Assembly: GCF_016428595.1 (NCBI RefSeq)
Contig: NZ_JAELVQ010000006.1
Location: 149,876-181,875 of the forward strand
DNA: 32,000 nucleotides
Direction: 5' to 3'
Source: Snuella sedimenti
GTDB taxonomy: Bacteria; Bacteroidota; Bacteroidia; Flavobacteriales; Flavobacteriaceae
Positions 1,937 to 22,358 of this stretch are shown piece after piece. The translations under genes and the position numbers were made by a program. Every line of letters starts with the position of its first letter. Position 1 is the first letter of the stretch. The notes beneath the pieces are model-generated. The model did no database searches. It saw only the letters and a program-made list of their open reading frames with translations, and was not told the DNA's origin.

Positions 1937-3607
1937 TTACCAGCCTGGATTTTGTTCCATACCTGTTACATCAATTTCAGCTTGTGGAATGGGCCATAAA
2001 CCATGTTTACCGGGATCGAAAGTACGCTCTCCCCATGTTAAGGTAACATCGTTTCCATTTTCATCTTTATAGGTTAATCCCTTAGGCACGCCTGGCATAA
2101 CATCCTTAGCAATATCCCAGCGTCTTATATCAAATAAACGTTGTCCTTCGAATGCCAATTCTACCCGTCTTTCCCGTCTTACGATCTCTCTTAGCTCGGC
2201 CTGGGAAAGTCCTGTAGGTATTTCAGGCATCATAACATCTGGCCTTTGTCTCACTTGATTAATAGCATCATAAACAGAGGCATCAATAGCACCGGCTTCA
2301 ATTTTTGATTCGGCATACATCAATAAGGCATCGGCATATCTCATAAGAATGTAATGTACGCCTCCATCCCAAACATTTGATACATCGATATCTTCATTCG
2401 AAATATATTTTAACCAGTTGTATCCTGTTGATGTTTTATTCCATTGACCACCTGTTCCGTCGGTTAGATCATCACCAGGAATTATGGTTTTTCCCGGATA
2501 AGTTGCTCCCGGAATGGTGTTATAAACCCCTCCACGCCAATCGGCTCCGGGATATAGTATTGAATACCCTAATCTTGGATCTCTGTTGTCATATGGATTC
2601 TCAGAATCGTATAAAGGGGAGTCTTCAATGGTTTTACCATCGGTAAGTTCGTAAGTATCTACCAGCGATTGCAAGGGACACGATACACTCCAGCCACCTA
2701 CGGAGTTCGGACCAAAATTTAACCAATAGAACTCACCTTCATCAACATCCTGTTTTACCTGTACATCCAAAATAACTTCGTTATTACCAATACCTTCATA
2801 AGTAAACAGGTTTTCATAACTAGGGTATAAACTATAAACACCTAGATCCATAAGTTCTTTGGATGCTGCGGCCGACTCAGTCCATTTTTCCTGCATTAAC
2901 AACATCTTAGCTTTTAAAAATAGAGCTGTTCCCCTGGTAACACGCCCTTTATCACTACCTCCATAGGTTAATGGTAAATCCATTTTAATGGCATCAAGTT
3001 CTTCTACCAAGGCATCCAAAATAATATTTCTATCGGTTCTTGCTGCTCCAGCCGCTGGTGTTAAACTTCCATCATCGTTTACTGTTGGTGTAAGTTCTTC
3101 TGGTGATATACTCGATGTTAAAAAAGGAACATCACCAAATAAATAGGTTAAGTCAAAATAAAAGTAGGCTCTTAGTACCTTAGCTTCCGCTAAAAGTCGG
3201 TCTTTAAAATCGGGATTGATATCGGTAACCCCATCGGCACCTTCCAAAATTCTGTTAACCCGTTGAATGCCTTTATAGCGTTCTCTCCAACGCGCTGTAG
3301 AATACCCTTCGCTTGCTCCTGCTGTTCCATCTGCCAATCGGTATGCCGGGTCCCATGAATGATGATCAATAGCGTCATCGGTTACTATATCCAAACGTAG
3401 CATATCGGTTCCTCTTCCCCATTCTCCCCAATCGTTAAATCCAAGTACATTATAAGCTGCATTAACCGCAAATACCAAATCTTTTTCCTGTTTAAAAAAG
3501 GTTGCTGTTGAAATAGCATCACTCGGTGATTTTTCTAAAAAAGAATCATCACAACTTACTATAAAGACTATAGTAAGTAAGGTAAAAATATATCTATATT
3601 GTTTCAT
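1937..3607 (-). CDS. SusD/RagB-family nutrient-binding outer-membrane lipoprotein (module 1)
   Basis: 556 aa. Lipoprotein signal LLTIVFIVSC followed by an acidic DDSF surface-export-like segment. SusD-like conserved C-terminal block ...YADALLMYAESKIE...RRERRVELAFEGQRLFDIRRW... The gene lies directly downstream of a SusC gene. Confidence 0.93.
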   Translation of the reverse strand: MKQYRYIFTLLTIVFIVSCDDSFLEKSPSDAISTATFFKQEKDLVFAVNAAYNVLGFNDWGEWGRGTDMLRLDIVTDDAIDHHSWDPAYRLADGTAGASEGYSTARWRERYKGIQRVNRILEGADGVTDINPDFKDRLLAEAKVLRAYFYFDLTYLFGDVPFLTSSISPEELTPTVNDDGSLTPAAGAARTDRNIILDALVEELDAIKMDLPLTYGGSDKGRVTRGTALFLKAKMLLMQEKWTESAAASKELMDLGVYSLYPSYENLFTYEGIGNNEVILDVQVKQDVDEGEFYWLNFGPNSVGGWSVSCPLQSLVDTYELTDGKTIEDSPLYDSENPYDNRDPRLGYSILYPGADWRGGVYNTIPGATYPGKTIIPGDDLTDGTGGQWNKTSTGYNWLKYISNEDIDVSNVWDGGVHYILMRYADALLMYAESKIEAGAIDASVYDAINQVRQRPDVMMPEIPTGLSQAELREIVRRERRVELAFEGQRLFDIRRWDIAKDVMPGVPKGLTYKDENGNDVTLTWGERTFDPGKHGLWPIPQAEIDVTGMEQNPGW

Positions 3608-3721: not shown

Positions 3722-6700
3722 TTAAAATGCCAATTGCACGCCAATCGTATACGTTGATGTAGGTGGATAATAATTTACTCTACCACTATACGTTTCAGGA
3801 TCCAGGCCAGACTCTACATCTGTAATTGTAAACAGGTTTGTTGCTCCGGTATAAATTCTAGCCTTTGATAACTTTAACTTATCCAATATGTTTTTGTTGA
3901 ATGAATACCCAACTTGAATATTTTTAAGTCTTAAGTACGAGGCATCACGTATCCAAAAATCATTATATAAAAAGTTATTCTTATTTGAAGCTGCTTCCAA
4001 TCTTGGGAAGGATGCATTTGGATTGTCTGGTGTCCATCTGTCTAAAACCCTAGTGGTCGTAAATATTTCAAAAGCCGGTCCTTCATTGGTTGCTCCATAA
4101 AAATAGTTTTCGGCCTTAGCTACTCCTTGCAAAAAGAAATTAATATCGAATCCCTTATAATCTGCCGAAAAATTAAAACTGTACTCATATCTAGGATTTG
4201 GATTTCCTATAATGGTTCTATCATCATCATTAATTTCTCCGTCACCATTTAAGTCTACTAACTTAATATCTCCCGGTTTTAACTCGGATTGGTTAGGCTG
4301 AGGTGCATGGTTATCAATCTCTTCCTGAGTTTGAAACAGCCCGTCTGATTTATAACCGTAAAATGACCACATAGGCTCACCCTCTTTCAATACGCTCCAA
4401 GCACTTATTGAAGGAGGTAAACCTCCAAAATTTGTTAGTTCGTTCTTAATATCGGTAATATTAAAGCCCATTGCATATTTAAATTCATGATCCCTGTTTT
4501 TATAGTTCAATGATAGCTCCCATCCTTTATTACTCACACTACCTATGTTAATTTCGGAAGACCCAAGCCCTACTAAAGGCGATATAGGCAAGTTTAGCAA
4601 CATATCTTTTGTTTTTTTGTGGAACCAATCGGCTGTAATACCCAATTTCCCTCTAAACAACAAAAGGTCTATTCCTATATCGGTTTGCTCTGAGGTTTCC
4701 CAGGTAATATCCTCGTTAGCATAAGTGCTTTGAGAATAACCGTTAACCTGAACATCGTTAAAACTATAGCTATAGTTCGTATTTATATTTGATGCGAACC
4801 TGTACAATCCTATGTTTTGGTTACCTAGTTGTCCCCACGACCCTCTAAACTTTAAGTGTTGAATGGCAGAGATATTACTCATGAAATCTTCATTTGAAAT
4901 AACCCAACCTCCTGAAAAGGATGGGAAAGTACCCCACTTATGACCTTCTGCAAACCTTGAAGAGCCATCATGCCTAATATTGGCTTCAAATAGGTATTTG
5001 TCTTTAAAAGAATAATTAATACGTCCTAAATAAGAAAGTAAAGCCCAGTCTTCACTATAACCAGCATTATCTTTGGATACAATATCACCTGTATTTAGCT
5101 CAGGAGAATCTTCATTATAAATATTTTGTCGACTCGCCCATAAGTAATTGCCAGCATTTTCTATTCTTTCTATTCCTCCTAAGACATTAAATGCATGTTC
5201 ATCACCTATTGTAACTTCATAATTTAATATACTTTTTAATTTATGCCGCGTTTCTTCCCACCGGCTTTCGGACAACTCATTTGGCGTCCATCGGTGCACA
5301 ACATTCGTTAAATCGTTAGGGTCTTTAAAATCAAAGCTCGCCTTAAAATTCTTATTTCTTATGTGTGTTCTTAAATAAGTGTAGTCTGTAGATAGCTTCA
5401 AACCTTTAAGTAAGTCCCAATCCAATCCTAAGTTAAGGCTCAAAGCTTCCGACACTCTTAAGTTTGTACCACTCTCCTTTAAAGCTGCCAGGGCATTGGT
5501 ATTATCCTTATTTAAACCATAGGCTCCATTAGGATATTGTAGTACGTTAACCGGAGAACTCCCAACTATAGCACCTATAGCTTCATCAAACCTATTTGGT
5601 TTTCTGGCTTCTCTGCTGTTAAAATAAATGTTTCCTCTTAACCTAAAGGCATCACTTAATTTTAGATCGGTATTTAGCCTGGTTCCTATTCTTTCACTAC
5701 CGGTGTTATACAGCATACCATCCTGATCCAGATAATTCACCGATAGTGCGATCCTAGCTAATTCGGATCCGCCCCGAACACTAAGGGAGTGATTTTGAAC
5801 AGGTGCCGACTTAAATAACTCTTCAAACATATCAGTATATGGATAAGCTATAGGATCGGCCCCAGAAATGGTGTTTTGAATATATTCGTCTGAATATTTC
5901 TCAGGAAGTCCGGCATTAACCAAAGCTTCATTTACTAAATTTAAATAGTCCTCGGGTCCCACCAATTCTGGCAACGTGGCTGTTGTTTGCCACCCGGTAT
6001 AACTATCGAGGTTTATTCTAAGCTTTCCTTCTTTACCTCTTTTTGTGGTAATTAACACAACTCCATTGGCGGCTCTGGAACCATATATAGATGAAGATGC
6101 GGCATCTTTTAACACAGAGATACTTTCAATATCCTGCATATTAATCTCACTGATAGGCGATTCGATCCCGTCTATTAAAACCAAAGGATCGGTACCGGCA
6201 GACACAGAACCATTACCTCTAATCTTAAAGGATAGGGTCTCTCCTCCTGGCGACCCTCCACGGTCTATAATAGTTAAACCTGTTGCAACACCTTGCAACG
6301 CCTGACGCGCATCGGTTAATGGCTTTGTCGTTAGCTCATCTCCCTTGATAGAAGAAACAGCACCAGTTAAATTAGCCTTCTTTTGAGTCGCATATCCAAC
6401 CACTACAACTTCGTTTAAACCCTGAGCTTCTTCTTGTAATATTGCATTGATTTCAGTTTGGTTTCCAACCTCAATCTCTTTAGTTACAAAACCTAAAAAT
6501 CGATACACCAAAACTGATTGGGAGCTTGACACTGCAATAGAATAATGTCCATCAAAATCGACCTGAACCCCTTTAGTTTCATCGCCCTTAACTGTGACAG
6601 TCGCCCCAGGAAGGGGTTGTCCATCCTGATCTGTGACAGTTCCCTTTACTTCAATTTGCTGTTGGTTTTCACTGCTAACTTCTTCTTTTTCCTTCTCCTT

Positions 6701-7054
6701 AATTACAATTGTATTGTTTTGCGTTAACTCAAAGTTAAGAGCATTCTCATTCAAACAAAGGTTTAATAGTTTACTTAACTCTATAACGCCTTTCTTTAAT
6801 TGTACTTTTGGACTGTCCTTAAATAAACTCTTGGGGTAAATAAAACGATAATCTGTTTGTTTTTTAATGATTTTAAATACTTGATCAACCATAATGAGCT
6901 GATCTTTTTCTATTATTACCTTTTCCTGAGCAAAAGAACTTTTGGTTGTAAAGCTAAAAACTGTAGCACACAATAAAAAGATAAACGTTTTCATAATCAT
7001 GAGTAACAACCGTTTTCGGATTTGAAAACGGACATTAATTAATTTAATTTCCAT
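3722..7054 (-). CDS. SusC/RagA-type TonB-dependent transporter with N-terminal STN signalling domain (transducer type, module 1)
   Basis: 1110 aa with a long N-terminal signal region. An STN-like segment (about aa 50-120) is followed by a carboxypeptidase-regulatory-like domain (VTDQDGQPLPGATVTVKGD). Plug motifs are present (VVVVGYATQKK, SISVLKDAASSSIYGSRAANGVVLITTKRG). The barrel ends ...IGVQLAF. It is paired with FecR upstream and SusD downstream. Confidence 0.95.
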   Translation of the reverse strand: MEIKLINVRFQIRKRLLLMIMKTFIFLLCATVFSFTTKSSFAQEKVIIEKDQLIMVDQVFKIIKKQTDYRFIYPKSLFKDSPKVQLKKGVIELSKLLNLCLNENALNFELTQNNTIVIKEKEKEEVSSENQQQIEVKGTVTDQDGQPLPGATVTVKGDETKGVQVDFDGHYSIAVSSSQSVLVYRFLGFVTKEIEVGNQTEINAILQEEAQGLNEVVVVGYATQKKANLTGAVSSIKGDELTTKPLTDARQALQGVATGLTIIDRGGSPGGETLSFKIRGNGSVSAGTDPLVLIDGIESPISEINMQDIESISVLKDAASSSIYGSRAANGVVLITTKRGKEGKLRINLDSYTGWQTTATLPELVGPEDYLNLVNEALVNAGLPEKYSDEYIQNTISGADPIAYPYTDMFEELFKSAPVQNHSLSVRGGSELARIALSVNYLDQDGMLYNTGSERIGTRLNTDLKLSDAFRLRGNIYFNSREARKPNRFDEAIGAIVGSSPVNVLQYPNGAYGLNKDNTNALAALKESGTNLRVSEALSLNLGLDWDLLKGLKLSTDYTYLRTHIRNKNFKASFDFKDPNDLTNVVHRWTPNELSESRWEETRHKLKSILNYEVTIGDEHAFNVLGGIERIENAGNYLWASRQNIYNEDSPELNTGDIVSKDNAGYSEDWALLSYLGRINYSFKDKYLFEANIRHDGSSRFAEGHKWGTFPSFSGGWVISNEDFMSNISAIQHLKFRGSWGQLGNQNIGLYRFASNINTNYSYSFNDVQVNGYSQSTYANEDITWETSEQTDIGIDLLLFRGKLGITADWFHKKTKDMLLNLPISPLVGLGSSEINIGSVSNKGWELSLNYKNRDHEFKYAMGFNITDIKNELTNFGGLPPSISAWSVLKEGEPMWSFYGYKSDGLFQTQEEIDNHAPQPNQSELKPGDIKLVDLNGDGEINDDDRTIIGNPNPRYEYSFNFSADYKGFDINFFLQGVAKAENYFYGATNEGPAFEIFTTTRVLDRWTPDNPNASFPRLEAASNKNNFLYNDFWIRDASYLRLKNIQVGYSFNKNILDKLKLSKARIYTGATNLFTITDVESGLDPETYSGRVNYYPPTSTYTIGVQLAF

Positions 7055-7061
7055 AAATTTG
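7054..7061 (+). promoter_or_regulatory. Exact Bacteroidota -7 promoter consensus (TAnnTTTG) on the plus strand, overlapping the susC-1 start codon
   Basis: TAAATTTG at 7054-7061. Its first T is the complement of the A of the susC-1 ATG. An identical 8-mer occupies the identical position at susC-2 (20414-20421). I found no convincing -33 TTTG/TTG at the expected spacing. Confidence 0.3.
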
Positions 7062-7100
7062 TTGGGTGTTAGTTAAACATTTAATTAATACGACATAAAG

Positions 7101-7151
7101 GGAGAGAAAGTTAGATACCGCCAAATGTCTGTGCTTCTCTCCTCTTTTTTT
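7101..7151 (+). terminator. Intrinsic-terminator-like hairpin plus T7 run, canonical only for a plus-strand (antisense) transcript, in the fecR-1/susC-1 spacer
   Basis: GGAGAGAA (7101-7108) pairs with TTCTCTCC (7135-7142). An inner helix AGATA (7113-7117)/TGTCT (7126-7130) contains a T-G pair that is allowed only in plus-strand RNA. The hairpin is followed by TCTTTTTTT (7143-7151). On the minus strand the homopolymer precedes the hairpin as an A-tract. Confidence 0.45.
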
Positions 7152-8316
7152 ATTCTAATATTAGTTTTTTATCTTGAATCTCATAGGCTGTAATTTTTCC
7201 GAAATTTTTAATACTTGCTAATATCTCTTCTATTTTTTGGTCTTTTCCTAGCATTCCGTTAAACTCTTCTTTTTCCAATTCAGGGTTCTTAAATACCACC
7301 TCCATATCATACCATCGCGCCAAAACGCGCATTATATCCTTAAGCGACTTTTCATCAAAACTAAATACGCCTTCTTTCCACGAAATCTCATTGTACACAT
7401 CAACAGTTGCTACCGAAATATTTTTTGTTTCAAGGTCGAGATTTGATTGCTGATTAGGTATTAAGTTTTGTTTGTTTCCTTCAAAACTTACAGCTACCTT
7501 GCCTTCTACCAAGGTTGTATAAACATGGGACTCATCTTTATATGCCTTTACATTAAATTGAGTCCCAAGCACCTGAATTTCTTGTTTATTATTAAGCACC
7601 TTAAACCCTGCTCCTTTATGAGCTGAGCTTGGGGATACTTCAAAGTAAGCCTCTCCATAAACCAACTCTACTTCACGTAGCTTACCTTCTGTAAAACTTA
7701 CAGGGTATTTTAATTGGGATTCTGAATTTAACCATACTTTAGTTCCGTCGGATAGTGTCATGAAGAATTGACCGCCTCTGGGAATTGTTAAGTAATTGTA
7801 TTCAACAGCTTTATTTGCTTTCTTTTTTGACACATAAACAAGTGCCTCTCCATTACTGCTTACATTATCATCTTGGTAACTTGTTCCTTTTTCTAAGGCT
7901 ACATTGGCACCATTAGCCAGCGTAAGCGTCGCTTTATCGGTACCTATTTCAATATTATTAATATTAACAATGATTGGTTCAATACGCTCTGTCTCACTTT
8001 CTTTATTTAAGAATATGGTTAATGTTACCATAAGAGCAACGGAAGCTGCCGCTGCATACTTAAACCAAGGCTTCTTGAAGATTACAACACCGGTTTTTGT
8101 TTGCTTCTTTTGTGCCTTTAATAAAACCTCATCCCAAGCATTGTCTTTATCGATGGTATTGTATTCTGATATTTTATCTGCAAAACTTTCAAAATCAACA
8201 TCCTTTACAAAGGGATATGTTTTTCTAAATTGTTTTAATTGCTCTTTACCTGTTGCGCTTAAAACTTTTAGTTTTTTCTTAATTATTAGTCTTGATATCT
8301 GAAATATATCATTCAT
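7150..8316 (-). CDS. FecR-family anti-sigma factor / transmembrane sensor (module 1)
   Basis: 388 aa with a single TM helix (WFKYAAAASVALMVTLTIFL). FecR domain (TIPRGGQFFMTLSDGTKVWLNSESQLKYP...VELVYGEAYFEV). C-terminal DUF4974-like segment (SLKDIMRVLARWYDMEVVF). It sits between the ECF sigma and the STN-SusC genes. Confidence 0.93.
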   Translation of the reverse strand: MNDIFQISRLIIKKKLKVLSATGKEQLKQFRKTYPFVKDVDFESFADKISEYNTIDKDNAWDEVLLKAQKKQTKTGVVIFKKPWFKYAAAASVALMVTLTIFLNKESETERIEPIIVNINNIEIGTDKATLTLANGANVALEKGTSYQDDNVSSNGEALVYVSKKKANKAVEYNYLTIPRGGQFFMTLSDGTKVWLNSESQLKYPVSFTEGKLREVELVYGEAYFEVSPSSAHKGAGFKVLNNKQEIQVLGTQFNVKAYKDESHVYTTLVEGKVAVSFEGNKQNLIPNQQSNLDLETKNISVATVDVYNEISWKEGVFSFDEKSLKDIMRVLARWYDMEVVFKNPELEKEEFNGMLGKDQKIEEILASIKNFGKITAYEIQDKKLILE

Positions 8317-8523: not shown

Positions 8524-9045
8524 CTACGTCAATAAGAAGTAGATAATTGTTTCCATATCTTTAAACTGCTCTCGTAGTATTTTATAGGATTGCGACTTTA
8601 AAGTTTTAACCGTTTGTAATTTAATATCCAGGACTTCTGCTATTTCTGCATTTTTTAAACCTTTAAGGCTTAGTTGAATGATTTGCCGTTTTCTATCGGG
8701 AAGTACCTCAATAGCTTTATGCAACTGTCTAACAATCTCTTCTTCCAAGACTTGCTTTAAAAATAAATTATCATCTTCAACCGACAATAATGCACTTTCG
8801 GCATAACGTTCTTTTACTTTGTTATGTTTAATAATATTATAACATTTATTTCTGGTAACTTTATAGAGATATACTTTTAAGGACACCTCATCTGGAAAAC
8901 TTTGATCTTTCTCCCAAAGACTTACAAAAATATCTTGCACTAAATCTTCACACTCATCTTTAAAGATCAAAAAGCGATTTGCATATATTACGAGTGCCTC
9001 ATAATATGTGTAAAATATTTTTTTTAAATCACTTTTAGTAAGCAC
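8524..9045 (-). CDS. ECF (sigma-70 family) RNA polymerase sigma factor (module 1)
   Basis: 173 aa. The start is GTG, with no nearby in-frame ATG. Region 2 (EDLVQDIFVSLWEK) and a region 4 HTH (LKNAEIAEVLDIKLQTVKTLKSQSYKILR) are present. The gene is upstream of FecR. Confidence 0.9.
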   Translation of the reverse strand: MLTKSDLKKIFYTYYEALVIYANRFLIFKDECEDLVQDIFVSLWEKDQSFPDEVSLKVYLYKVTRNKCYNIIKHNKVKERYAESALLSVEDDNLFLKQVLEEEIVRQLHKAIEVLPDRKRQIIQLSLKGLKNAEIAEVLDIKLQTVKTLKSQSYKILREQFKDMETIIYFLLT

Positions 9046-22350: not shown

Positions 22351-22358
22351 CAAAGTTA
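22351..22358 (-). promoter_or_regulatory. Candidate -7 promoter box (TAACTTTG) for sigma-2
   Basis: The minus-strand 8-mer TAACTTTG matches TAnnTTTG and lies 22 nt upstream of the proposed TTG start. I saw no clear -33 element. A single-motif match has a high chance expectation in AT-rich DNA. Confidence 0.25.

What the first reader, a model, noticed from the sequence alone, without database searches (positions are those of the whole stretch)
7054..7151. Second candidate cis-antisense sRNA at the equivalent position of module 1 (fecR-1/susC-1 spacer)
Seen in sequence: the same TAAATTTG box (7054-7061) overlaps the susC-1 ATG on the plus strand. It is followed by a two-part hairpin: an outer helix of 8 bp (7101-7108 / 7135-7142) and an inner helix of 5 bp (7113-7117 / 7126-7130). 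The inner helix has a T-G pair allowed only in plus-strand RNA. The hairpin is followed by TCTTTTTTT (7143-7151).

The stem sequences differ completely from module 2, while the geometry is preserved (box, about 35-40 nt, hairpin, U-run abutting the fecR stop). That is what a conserved RNA element would show, rather than simple sequence inheritance.
Basis: partly seen in the sequence, partly recalled or inferred. Interest (0 to 1): 0.62.

Follow-up and report, generated by a model that had tools for sequence, protein, structure and literature searches.

The report
DonS-like antisense RNA gene facing susC
The 95-base gap between an anti-sigma gene (fecR) and a nutrient-uptake gene (susC) in this marine flavobacterium very probably holds a gene for an ~86-base RNA on the opposite strand, laid out like the DonS-type antisense RNAs that restrain sugar-utilisation loci in gut Bacteroides, and one of a conserved family not yet in Rfam.

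Summary

It is far beyond chance:
- All 25 testable fecR-susC spacers of this genome carry an antisense-facing terminator, against 10% of other same-direction spacers.
- 20 of 28 fecR-linked susC genes have an antisense TAnnTTTG box overlapping the start codon, against 7 of 3841 other ORFs.
- A covariance model built on 30 members hits 12 places in the genome. All 12 are in fecR-susC spacers, on the strand opposite the genes. It also hits 20 of 120 other Flavobacteriaceae genera.
- The helices show compensatory changes and contain 97 G-U pairs against 2 A-C pairs, so they fold only as plus-strand RNA.

Best reading: a DonS-like cis-antisense sRNA spanning about 7066-7151 that damps susC-1.

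Limits:
- No -33 promoter element is present.
- The susC sense promoter is unknown.

The kind is known in Bacteroides. Earlier notes of this scan report the same design on other genomes. What is new is a structured, Flavobacteriaceae-restricted family whose conserved 5' hairpin could also allow cross-talk between loci. Module 1 and module 2 are homologous members of it, not unrelated sequences.

The parts
7054..7061 (+). TAAATTTG, a match to the Bacteroidota sigma-A -7 box TAnnTTTG. It overlaps the susC-1 start codon by one base.
   Evidence: The sense form CAAANNTATG is found at 20 of 28 fecR-linked susC genes, 0 of 21 other susC-like genes and 7 of 3841 other ORFs (Fisher p = 1e-41). It is also at the susC start in 45 of 63 relatives' spacers. 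No -33 TTG lies at the canonical spacing.
7066..7066 (+). Predicted transcription start (plus or minus 2 nt). Inferred, not observed.
   Evidence: In Flavobacterium psychrophilum the box occupies -12 to -5 (PMC9723704). Applied here, that places +1 at about 7066, the first base of the 5' hairpin.
7066..7091 (+). 5' hairpin GUGUUAGUUAA-ACAU-UUAAUUAAUAC (11 pairs in module 1; 10 in the family consensus, two of them conserved G-U pairs). It is the complement of the conserved block upstream of susC.
   Evidence: Folding. In alignment A1 it occupies columns 17-26 / 38-47 and is 97% paired. The G-U pairs at columns 19-45 and 23-41 occur in 22 and 27 of 30 sequences, and would be C-A mismatches on the susC strand. 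RNAalifold does not predict this helix on the sense strand.
7097..7147 (+). Composite terminator hairpin: outer stem 7101-7108 / 7135-7142, inner stem 7113-7117 / 7126-7130, with a conserved apical sequence ACCGCCAAAUGU.
   Evidence: -19.0 kcal/mol on the plus strand, -15.7 on the minus strand. All 9 terminator pairs (helices 2 and 3) have changes on both sides in A2.
7143..7151 (+). U-run TCTTTTTTT, the predicted 3' end. It overlaps the fecR-1 stop codon.
   Evidence: Across 80 spacers the mean T count in the 8 nt after the hairpin is 6.1 on the antisense strand and 3.2 on the sense strand. Antisense-facing terminators occur in 25 of 25 fecR-susC spacers against 79 of 783 controls.
7052..7054 (-). 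susC-1 start codon. It is in frame, and stop-free through to the second Met, in all family members.
   Evidence: Length differences between ATG1 and the second Met are multiples of three.
7150..7152 (-). fecR-1 stop codon TAA
20412..20503 (+). The paralogous copy in module 2 (fecR-2/susC-2 spacer)
   Evidence: R1 match of 61.8 bits, E = 3e-8. Sequence.

Best explanation
The fecR-1/susC-1 spacer is a gene for a small cis-antisense RNA of about 86 nt, plus strand about 7066-7151.

How it is made (inferred from sequence signals):
- RNA polymerase with the housekeeping sigma factor starts at a -7 box that overlaps the susC start codon.
- The transcript begins with an A-U/G-U-rich stem-loop.
- It ends at an intrinsic terminator whose U-run overlaps the fecR stop codon.
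- It is therefore perfectly complementary to the whole leader or intercistronic RNA upstream of susC-1, from about -12 to the fecR stop.

How it acts (inferred by analogy):
- Pairing with that leader occludes the A-rich region that Bacteroidota use for translation initiation, and/or triggers cleavage.
- This lowers SusC/SusD synthesis when the ECF sigma factor is not strongly activated.
- Strong sense transcription across the antisense promoter would in turn silence the RNA.

What is shown here: the sequence signals, their strand, their covariation and their exclusive association with fecR-linked susC genes.

What is inferred: that the RNA is transcribed, where it starts, and that it represses.
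For: 1. The signals are present and fold significantly only on the plus strand.
2. The -7 box at the ATG is found at 20 of 28 fecR-linked susC genes against 7 of 3841 other ORFs.
3. Antisense-facing terminators occur in 25 of 25 fecR-susC spacers (sense-facing in 1 of 25), against 10% of 783 other co-directional spacers.
4. Composition-controlled z-scores have a median of -4.3 on the antisense strand and -2.0 on the sense strand; the antisense value is lower in 70 of 80.
5. Covariation, alignment A1 (30 sequences): 97.9% of cells paired and 8 pairs with changes on both sides, with 0 of 500 shuffles as high; slid controls give 34-53% paired.
6. Covariation, alignment A2 (56 distinct sequences): 16 of 19 pairs have changes on both sides.
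7. Strand test: G-U against A-C cells are 97:2 in A1 and 178:3 in A2.
8. Model R1 hits 12 places in the 4.37-Mb genome. All 12 are in fecR-susC spacers, opposite to the genes and starting at the susC ATG.
9. R1 gives 59 of 59 hits in that position across loci of about 45 other genomes.
10. In L001, where a gene is inserted after fecR, the element stays with susC.
11. The mapped B. thetaiotaomicron PUL-associated antisense RNAs have the same design: PM1 promoter (the canonical TAnnTTTG sigma-A motif of Ryan 2020), 81-140 nt, and for two of them 'TSS overlaps start codon' (PMC7366714 Supplementary Data 2).
Against:
- No -33 TTG at the canonical distance in module 1 or in 61 of 63 family members, so promoter strength is uncertain.
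- The sense promoter of susC was not located. If the induced susC mRNA starts downstream of most of the spacer, the overlap with the sRNA would be small.
- Sequence conservation of the 5' block cannot by itself tell an sRNA constraint from a constraint on the susC leader.
- The CM-fitted alignment A2 leans towards the modelled structure.
Confidence: 0.72

Rival explanations
1. Sense-strand element. The conserved block and hairpin belong to the susC mRNA or its promoter: an ECF-sigma-dependent promoter, a leader structure, or a processing or termination site between fecR and susC. The antisense signals would be by-products.
For: - An ECF-dependent susC promoter must lie somewhere near here and was not found.
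- The sense strand of some relatives reads GGGAAC...N18...CGT across the hairpin, which is ECF-like (6 of 59, against 0.07 expected).
- The apical loop is conserved in sequence.
- Sense and antisense constraints are not mutually exclusive.
Against: - GGAAC-N15-19-CGT is absent from both window modules and from all own-genome copies.
- The stems change by compensation rather than keeping a motif.
- G-U against A-C cells are 97:2, so the helices do not form in minus-strand RNA.
- The U-run is on the antisense side.
- A -10-like role for CAAATTTATG would start transcription after the in-frame, conserved start codon.
Confidence: 0.1
2. Antisense insulator only. The hairpin and T-run stop stray antisense transcription coming out of susC before it enters fecR and the sigma gene. 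The box at the ATG is not a working promoter, so no discrete sRNA exists.
For: - The terminator is the most universal feature: 25 of 25 spacers. It also occurs in Pedobacter and other orders where the box at the ATG is missing.
- No -33 element is present.
Against: - The box is enriched about 400-fold, exactly at the ATG.
- A conserved, covarying 5' hairpin begins at the predicted +1.
- In B. thetaiotaomicron, discrete RNAs with primary 5' ends were mapped at such sites.
Confidence: 0.1
3. Chance co-occurrence of a box and a hairpin in AT-rich DNA, or mere inheritance of duplicated spacers without function.
For: TAnnTTTG occurs 0.7 times per kb per strand. The modules are paralogous.
Against: - p = 1e-41 for the box and 3e-24 for the terminator.
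- The element is conserved across about 20 genera at only 50-60% FecR protein identity.
- Compensatory changes are present.
Confidence: 0.02

Closest known systems
DonS of Bacteroides fragilis and the DonS-like PUL-associated cis-antisense RNAs of B. thetaiotaomicron (BTnc009, -055, -077, -123, -249, -252). Sources: Cao et al. 2016 J Bacteriol 198:2410; Ryan et al. 2020, PMC7366714.
   Same: - It sits in an ECF-sigma/anti-sigma type SusC/D locus, on the strand opposite to susC and facing its 5' end.
- It has a canonical sigma-A (TAnnTTTG, 'PM1') promoter with the start at or near the susC start codon.
- Its size is 78-140 nt (here about 86).
- It has a terminator hairpin.
- It occurs in many copies per genome, one per locus.
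- DonS lowers expression of its locus.
   Different: - The organism belongs to a different order: Flavobacteriaceae, marine.
- No expression or repression data exist here.
- The members here form a sequence- and structure-conserved family (model R1). R1 was found in 20 of 120 other Flavobacteriaceae genera but in 0 of 136 genomes of other families of the class, so no sequence homology to the Bacteroides RNAs is shown.
- The loci here are not known to be host-glycan loci.
- The primary DonS paper was not available to me; its features are taken from papers that cite it.
FopS family of paralogous sRNAs of B. thetaiotaomicron (Ruttiger et al. 2025, PMC11697453)
   Same: - It is a multicopy sRNA family of about 65-70 nt with a conserved 5' region.
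- It is driven by sigma-A promoters.
- It pairs next to the start codon of susC mRNAs and blocks translation.
- Here the conserved 5' hairpin gives predicted trans-duplexes of about -17 kcal/mol with other class-B susC leaders, against about -10 for unrelated ones.
   Different: - FopS genes are mostly free-standing intergenic genes acting in trans (9 of 14). Here all 12 copies lie in their own fecR-susC spacer and are fully complementary to it.
- RbpB binding and bile induction are untested here.
Plasmid and type-I antisense RNAs that pair through stem-loops (CopA/CopT, RNAI/RNAII, Sok/hok)
   Same: A short, highly structured antisense RNA with a 5' stem-loop and a terminator, fully complementary to the leader of the gene it controls. 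Complementary loops could start the pairing.
   Different: A chromosomal nutrient-uptake locus. There is no replication or toxin function, and no kissing-loop evidence.

Membership tests
DonS-type PUL-associated cis-antisense sRNA | Lies in a SusC/SusD locus governed by an ECF sigma / FecR-type anti-sigma pair, at the 5' end of susC | tested here: met
   Pfam shows Sigma70_r2/r4_2, FecR + FecR_C, Plug/CarboxypepD_reg SusC and SusD_RagB, all on the minus strand. The element lies in the fecR-susC gap.
DonS-type PUL-associated cis-antisense sRNA | Encoded on the strand opposite to susC | tested here: met
   The promoter box, the T-run and the G-U pattern all point to the plus strand. This establishes the orientation of the signals, not an observed transcript.
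DonS-type PUL-associated cis-antisense sRNA | Canonical sigma-A promoter (TAnnTTTG at -7, TTTG at -33) with the TSS at or near the susC start codon | tested here: inconclusive
   The -7 box is exact and strongly enriched at the ATG. The -33 element is absent at the canonical spacing in module 1 and in 61 of 63 members.
DonS-type PUL-associated cis-antisense sRNA | Discrete RNA of about 78-140 nt ending at a terminator | tested here: inconclusive
   The predicted length is about 86 nt from box to T-run, and the terminator is present.
DonS-type PUL-associated cis-antisense sRNA | Lowers expression of the cognate susC operon | not testable with these tools
   Needs genetics or expression data.
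DonS-type PUL-associated cis-antisense sRNA | Sequence or structure homology to the Bacteroides RNAs | tested here: inconclusive
   R1 finds nothing in 136 genomes of other families of the class. The Bacteroides sequences themselves were not available for direct comparison. Rfam has no family for either.
FopS-type trans-acting multicopy sRNA | Many paralogous copies with a conserved 5' region | tested here: met
   12 R1 copies in the genome. The 5' hairpin columns are nearly invariant.
FopS-type trans-acting multicopy sRNA | Acts in trans on susC translation-initiation regions of other loci | tested here: inconclusive
   Predicted duplexes average -16.6 kcal/mol with other class-B leaders against -9.9 for class-A leaders. 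This is a prediction only.
FopS-type trans-acting multicopy sRNA | Genes mostly free-standing, not tied to their target | tested here: not met
   All 12 copies lie in fecR-susC spacers, and 59 of 59 hits lie next to a susC start.
Intrinsic (Rho-independent) terminator | Stable G+C-containing stem directly followed by a U-run on the transcribed strand | tested here: met
   On the plus strand the hairpin is -19.0 kcal/mol and is followed by TCTTTTTTT. On the minus strand the hairpin is followed by CUUUAUGUCG.

The most novel reading that the evidence does not exclude
The RNAs are not only private cis-repressors. Their nearly invariant 5' stem-loop is complementary to the conserved leader block of every class-B susC gene. 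The roughly 12 copies in this genome could therefore form a cross-reacting pool, a Flavobacteriaceae counterpart of FopS. This pool would set a common brake on all ECF-sigma-controlled SusC loci. Each locus would escape it only when its own sigma factor drives sense transcription through its own antisense promoter.
Probability: 0.3. Interest if true: 0.6.

Novelty: new member of a known kind. Interest (0 to 1): 0.45.

Why it matters
Marine Flavobacteriaceae are major degraders of algal and animal polymers. How their many SusC/D loci are kept silent and prioritised is poorly known. In the papers I could search, RNA-level control of such loci has been described only in gut Bacteroides.

A covariation-supported RNA family of this kind would:
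- extend the DonS principle to another order;
- give a searchable model, a candidate Rfam family;
- mark ECF-type SusC loci in genomes;
- offer a compact, testable switch in which an antisense promoter sits on the start codon.

Because this window's loci were earlier read as collagen-glycopeptide uptake systems, the RNA would be part of their regulation.

Tried and rejected
- **Rfam:** no family at gathering scores in the window. Only noise appears at E up to 10 in 6950-7250.
- **Primary DonS paper (PMC4999932):** not held. Its features were taken from PMC7366714, PMC11697453, PMC9723704 and PMC13750123.
- **B. thetaiotaomicron DNA:** it is among the control genomes, but no handle was given. 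The design could therefore be compared only through the published table.
- **ECF-type promoter across the hairpin (GGAAC-N15-19-CGT and variants):** 6 of 59 relatives have it, none in this genome. Rejected as the general explanation.
- **CAAATTTATG as a sense -10 element:** rejected, because the ATG is an in-frame, length-conserved start codon.
- **-33 element:** searched for and not found.
- **Raw antisense-versus-sense energy difference** (87 of 89 better on the antisense strand): biased by composition, so it was replaced by z-scores and the G-U/A-C count.
- **Simple terminator scan:** does not report the site because its loop limit is 8 nt.
- **Literature search for such RNAs in Flavobacteriia:** nothing found.
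- **Hairpin inside susC codons 8-16:** tested for strand preference; none found.

Full report
**What is there.** The window is G000:C54:149876-181875 of a 4.37-Mb, 35.7% G+C genome. The closest FecR relatives are in Flavivirga, Flaviramulus, Jejuia and Algibacter, so the organism is a Flavobacteriaceae. On the minus strand lie an ECF sigma gene (8524-9045), a FecR anti-sigma gene (7150-8316), a SusC-type receptor (3722-7054) and SusD (1937-3607). The finding is the 95-nt gap between the fecR stop and the susC ATG.

- TAAATTTG at 7054-7061 overlaps the start codon.
- The 8-bp outer helix and the 5-bp inner helix are there, the inner one with a T-G pair.
- TCTTTTTTT runs into the fecR stop codon.

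As RNA, the plus strand 7062-7155 folds into two hairpins at -27.4 kcal/mol (z = -4.7, 0 of 200 shuffles as good). The minus strand gives -16.2 kcal/mol (z = -1.5).

**It recurs across the genome.** The genome has about 30 fecR-like genes, and 28 of them are followed by a susC-like gene.
- The sense motif CAAANNTATG is the antisense CAT plus TAnnTTTG, with the ATG as the start codon. It is found at 20 of 28 fecR-linked susC genes, at 0 of 21 other susC-like genes and at 7 of 3841 other ORFs of at least 100 aa. Fisher p = 1e-41.
- A uniform terminator test required a hairpin of -9 kcal/mol or better and at least 5 T in the next 8 nt. It finds an antisense-facing terminator in 25 of 25 fecR-susC spacers of 60-250 nt and a sense-facing one in 1 of 25. 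Among 783 other co-directional spacers the figures are 79 antisense and 184 sense; p = 3e-24.
- Two hairpin classes exist. Class A is a simple CGGRAAATG...CATTTYCCG stem. Class B is a long composite stem with GGGR...YCCC ends plus a conserved ATTAATTAA...TAACTAAC block. Modules 1 and 2 of the window are both class B.

**Which strand.** Four independent lines point to the plus strand, antisense to susC.
1. The T-run: a mean of 6.1 T in the 8 nt after the hairpin on the antisense strand, against 3.2 on the sense strand (80 spacers).
2. Composition-controlled z-scores: median -4.3 on the antisense strand against -2.0 on the sense strand, and lower on the antisense strand in 70 of 80. For module 1 the values are -4.5 and -1.7.
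3. In an alignment of 30 class-B members (A1, window first), the consensus has a 10-bp 5' hairpin and a 9-bp terminator stem. RNAalifold gives -15.3 kcal/mol on the antisense strand. On the sense strand it gives -7.2 and no 5' hairpin at all.
4. Within those helices there are 97 G-U cells, which pair only on the plus strand, against 2 A-C cells, which would be G-U on the minus strand. In the larger alignment A2 the counts are 178 against 3.

**Covariation.**
- On A1, 97.9% of cells pair and 8 of 19 pairs show changes on both sides. None of 500 shuffles reaches any of the five measures. Sliding the partners by 1-3 columns drops pairing to 34-53%.
- On A2 (59 matches, 56 distinct, aligned by the model and therefore leaning towards it), 96.6% of cells pair, 16 of 19 pairs have changes on both sides and 88 cells show a double change. 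The slid controls give 14-34 such cells.

**Distribution.** A covariance model (R1) finds 12 places in the whole genome. Every one is a fecR-susC spacer, on the strand opposite to the genes, starting at the susC ATG.
- Across 66 FecR loci from other genomes plus the own-genome loci, all 59 matches lie in that position and orientation.
- In Flavivirga L001 a 570-aa gene is inserted after fecR. There the element stays at the susC start. It is therefore tied to susC, not to the fecR stop.
- R1 matches 20 of 120 other Flavobacteriaceae genera, one genome each, under strict filters.
- R1 matches 0 of 136 genomes of other families of the class.
- The looser design, an antisense terminator with or without a box at the ATG, is seen outside the family. 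Examples are the Pedobacter loci L060 and L064, the Odoribacter locus L063 and several unnamed loci of other families. In a phylum sample of one top-scoring FecR locus per genome, 7 of 25 had an antisense terminator and 0 of 25 a sense one. None of the positives was in another class of the phylum.

**Promoter.** The -7 box is exact. In F. psychrophilum it occupies -12 to -5 (PMC9723704). That puts +1 near 7066, which is the first base of the 5' hairpin. There is no TTG at the canonical -33 position in module 1 (the nearest TTTG, 7021-7024, lies 29 nt upstream of the box) or in 61 of 63 members. The upstream DNA is merely A/T-rich. Promoter strength is thus the weakest link in the argument.

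**Mechanism (inferred).** An RNA of about 86 nt spanning 7066-7151 would be fully complementary to the RNA between the fecR stop and position -12 of susC-1. By analogy with DonS and FopS, pairing would hide the A-rich initiation region and/or cause cleavage, lowering SusC/D synthesis. For FopS-10, binding up to position -6 of a susC start codon blocks translation in vitro (PMC11697453). Convergent transcription over a promoter that sits on the start codon would make sense and antisense expression mutually exclusive.

The 5' 40 nt of class-B RNAs are predicted to pair with the leaders of other class-B susC genes at about -17 kcal/mol. For class-A leaders the figure is about -10. The module-1 RNA against the module-2 leader gives -17.4, and the cis pairing gives -49.8. 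Cross-talk is therefore possible, and strict cis-specificity should not be assumed.

**Rivals.**
- A sense-strand promoter, leader or processing site is disfavoured by the strand tests above. It is further disfavoured because an ECF-like GGAAC-N15-19-CGT is found in only 6 of 59 relatives and in no copy of this genome. The start codon inside the motif is real: it is always in frame with the downstream ORF, stop-free, and length differences come in multiples of three.
- A terminator-only 'insulator' cannot be excluded without 5' end data.
- Chance is excluded.

**Comparison with what is known.**
- F. psychrophilum authors cite such antisense RNAs for 15 PULs of B. fragilis and present their own list of antisense RNAs as a starting point for similar studies in flavobacteria (PMC9723704).
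- In B. thetaiotaomicron, BTnc009, -055, -077, -123, -249 and -252 are 81-140 nt. All have the canonical PM1 promoter, some have terminators, and two are annotated 'TSS overlaps start codon' (Supplementary Data 2 of PMC7366714).
- The present element matches this design point for point at the sequence level. I found no paper describing such RNAs in Flavobacteriia, and there is no Rfam family.
- Earlier notes of this scan report the same design in other genomes, including follow-ups in a Pedobacter genome and in another genome. These are leads, not evidence. I checked the Pedobacter-type spacers (L060, L064) and the B. thetaiotaomicron table myself.

**Verdict.** This is a new member of a known kind: more precisely, a new, structurally defined, Flavobacteriaceae-restricted family of that kind. 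Transcription and function remain to be shown.

Noticed in passing
window 7010-7031 (minus strand, susC-1 codons 8-15): There is a perfect 8-bp inverted repeat, CCGTTTTC-AAATCC-GAAAACGG, inside the susC N-terminal extension. A hairpin at the same place but with different sequence recurs in most class-B susC genes of other genera. It shows no strand preference (G-U 66 against A-C 48; z about -1.7 on both strands). It lies about 35-56 nt upstream of the predicted antisense start.
   Followed up: partly
window 7118-7128 (+) and the loops of related hairpins; window 22351-22358 (-): The apical part of the terminator hairpin is conserved in sequence. It reads CCGCCAAATG on the antisense strand in module-1-type members. 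In another subclass and in class A it reads CTTTGGCGAG or TTGCGAG on the antisense strand. A TTTGGCG-like motif therefore sits on opposite strands in different subclasses. TAACTTTGGCG also forms a TAnnTTTG box upstream of the sigma-2 gene. This is unexplained.
   Followed up: partly
own genome, e.g. G000:C34, C54 (rc 71534), C5, C7, C1, C23: A second family ('class A') of about 13 fecR-susC spacers has the same layout but a short, nearly invariant terminator, AUCGGGAAAUGUUGCGAGCAUUUUCCGAUUUUUU. Its boxes are TACTTTTG, TATTTTTG or TAATTTTG at the ATG. No model was built for it.
   Followed up: partly
L001 3257-4969 and 5054-5152: In a Flavivirga genome a 570-aa gene is inserted between fecR and susC. 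The antisense element stays directly at the susC start codon.
   Followed up: yes
L095, L097, L102, L103, L105, L106: FecR loci from another class of the phylum lack the terminator and box design. Instead they share AAAAGCGCTTCCAAAA in the gap before the downstream gene.
   Followed up: no
L013, L017, L021, L023-L025, L030, L031, L033 (Flavobacterium spp.): The Flavobacterium-genus variant has CATAATTTTTTGG at the start codon (TAATTTTT, with the last base not G) and GGTTGGTT repeats in place of the TTAGTTA hairpin. It still has an antisense terminator.
   Followed up: no
whole genome: Seven ORFs not linked to fecR also start with CAAANNTATG. I did not look at what they are.
   Followed up: no
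window 6994-7054 (minus): SusC-1 and its relatives have a two-Met N-terminus: M-E/K-I-K...RKRLL..IM-K/R-TFIFL. A roughly 20-residue extension precedes the signal peptide. It is conserved in frame and length class across genera.
   Followed up: partly
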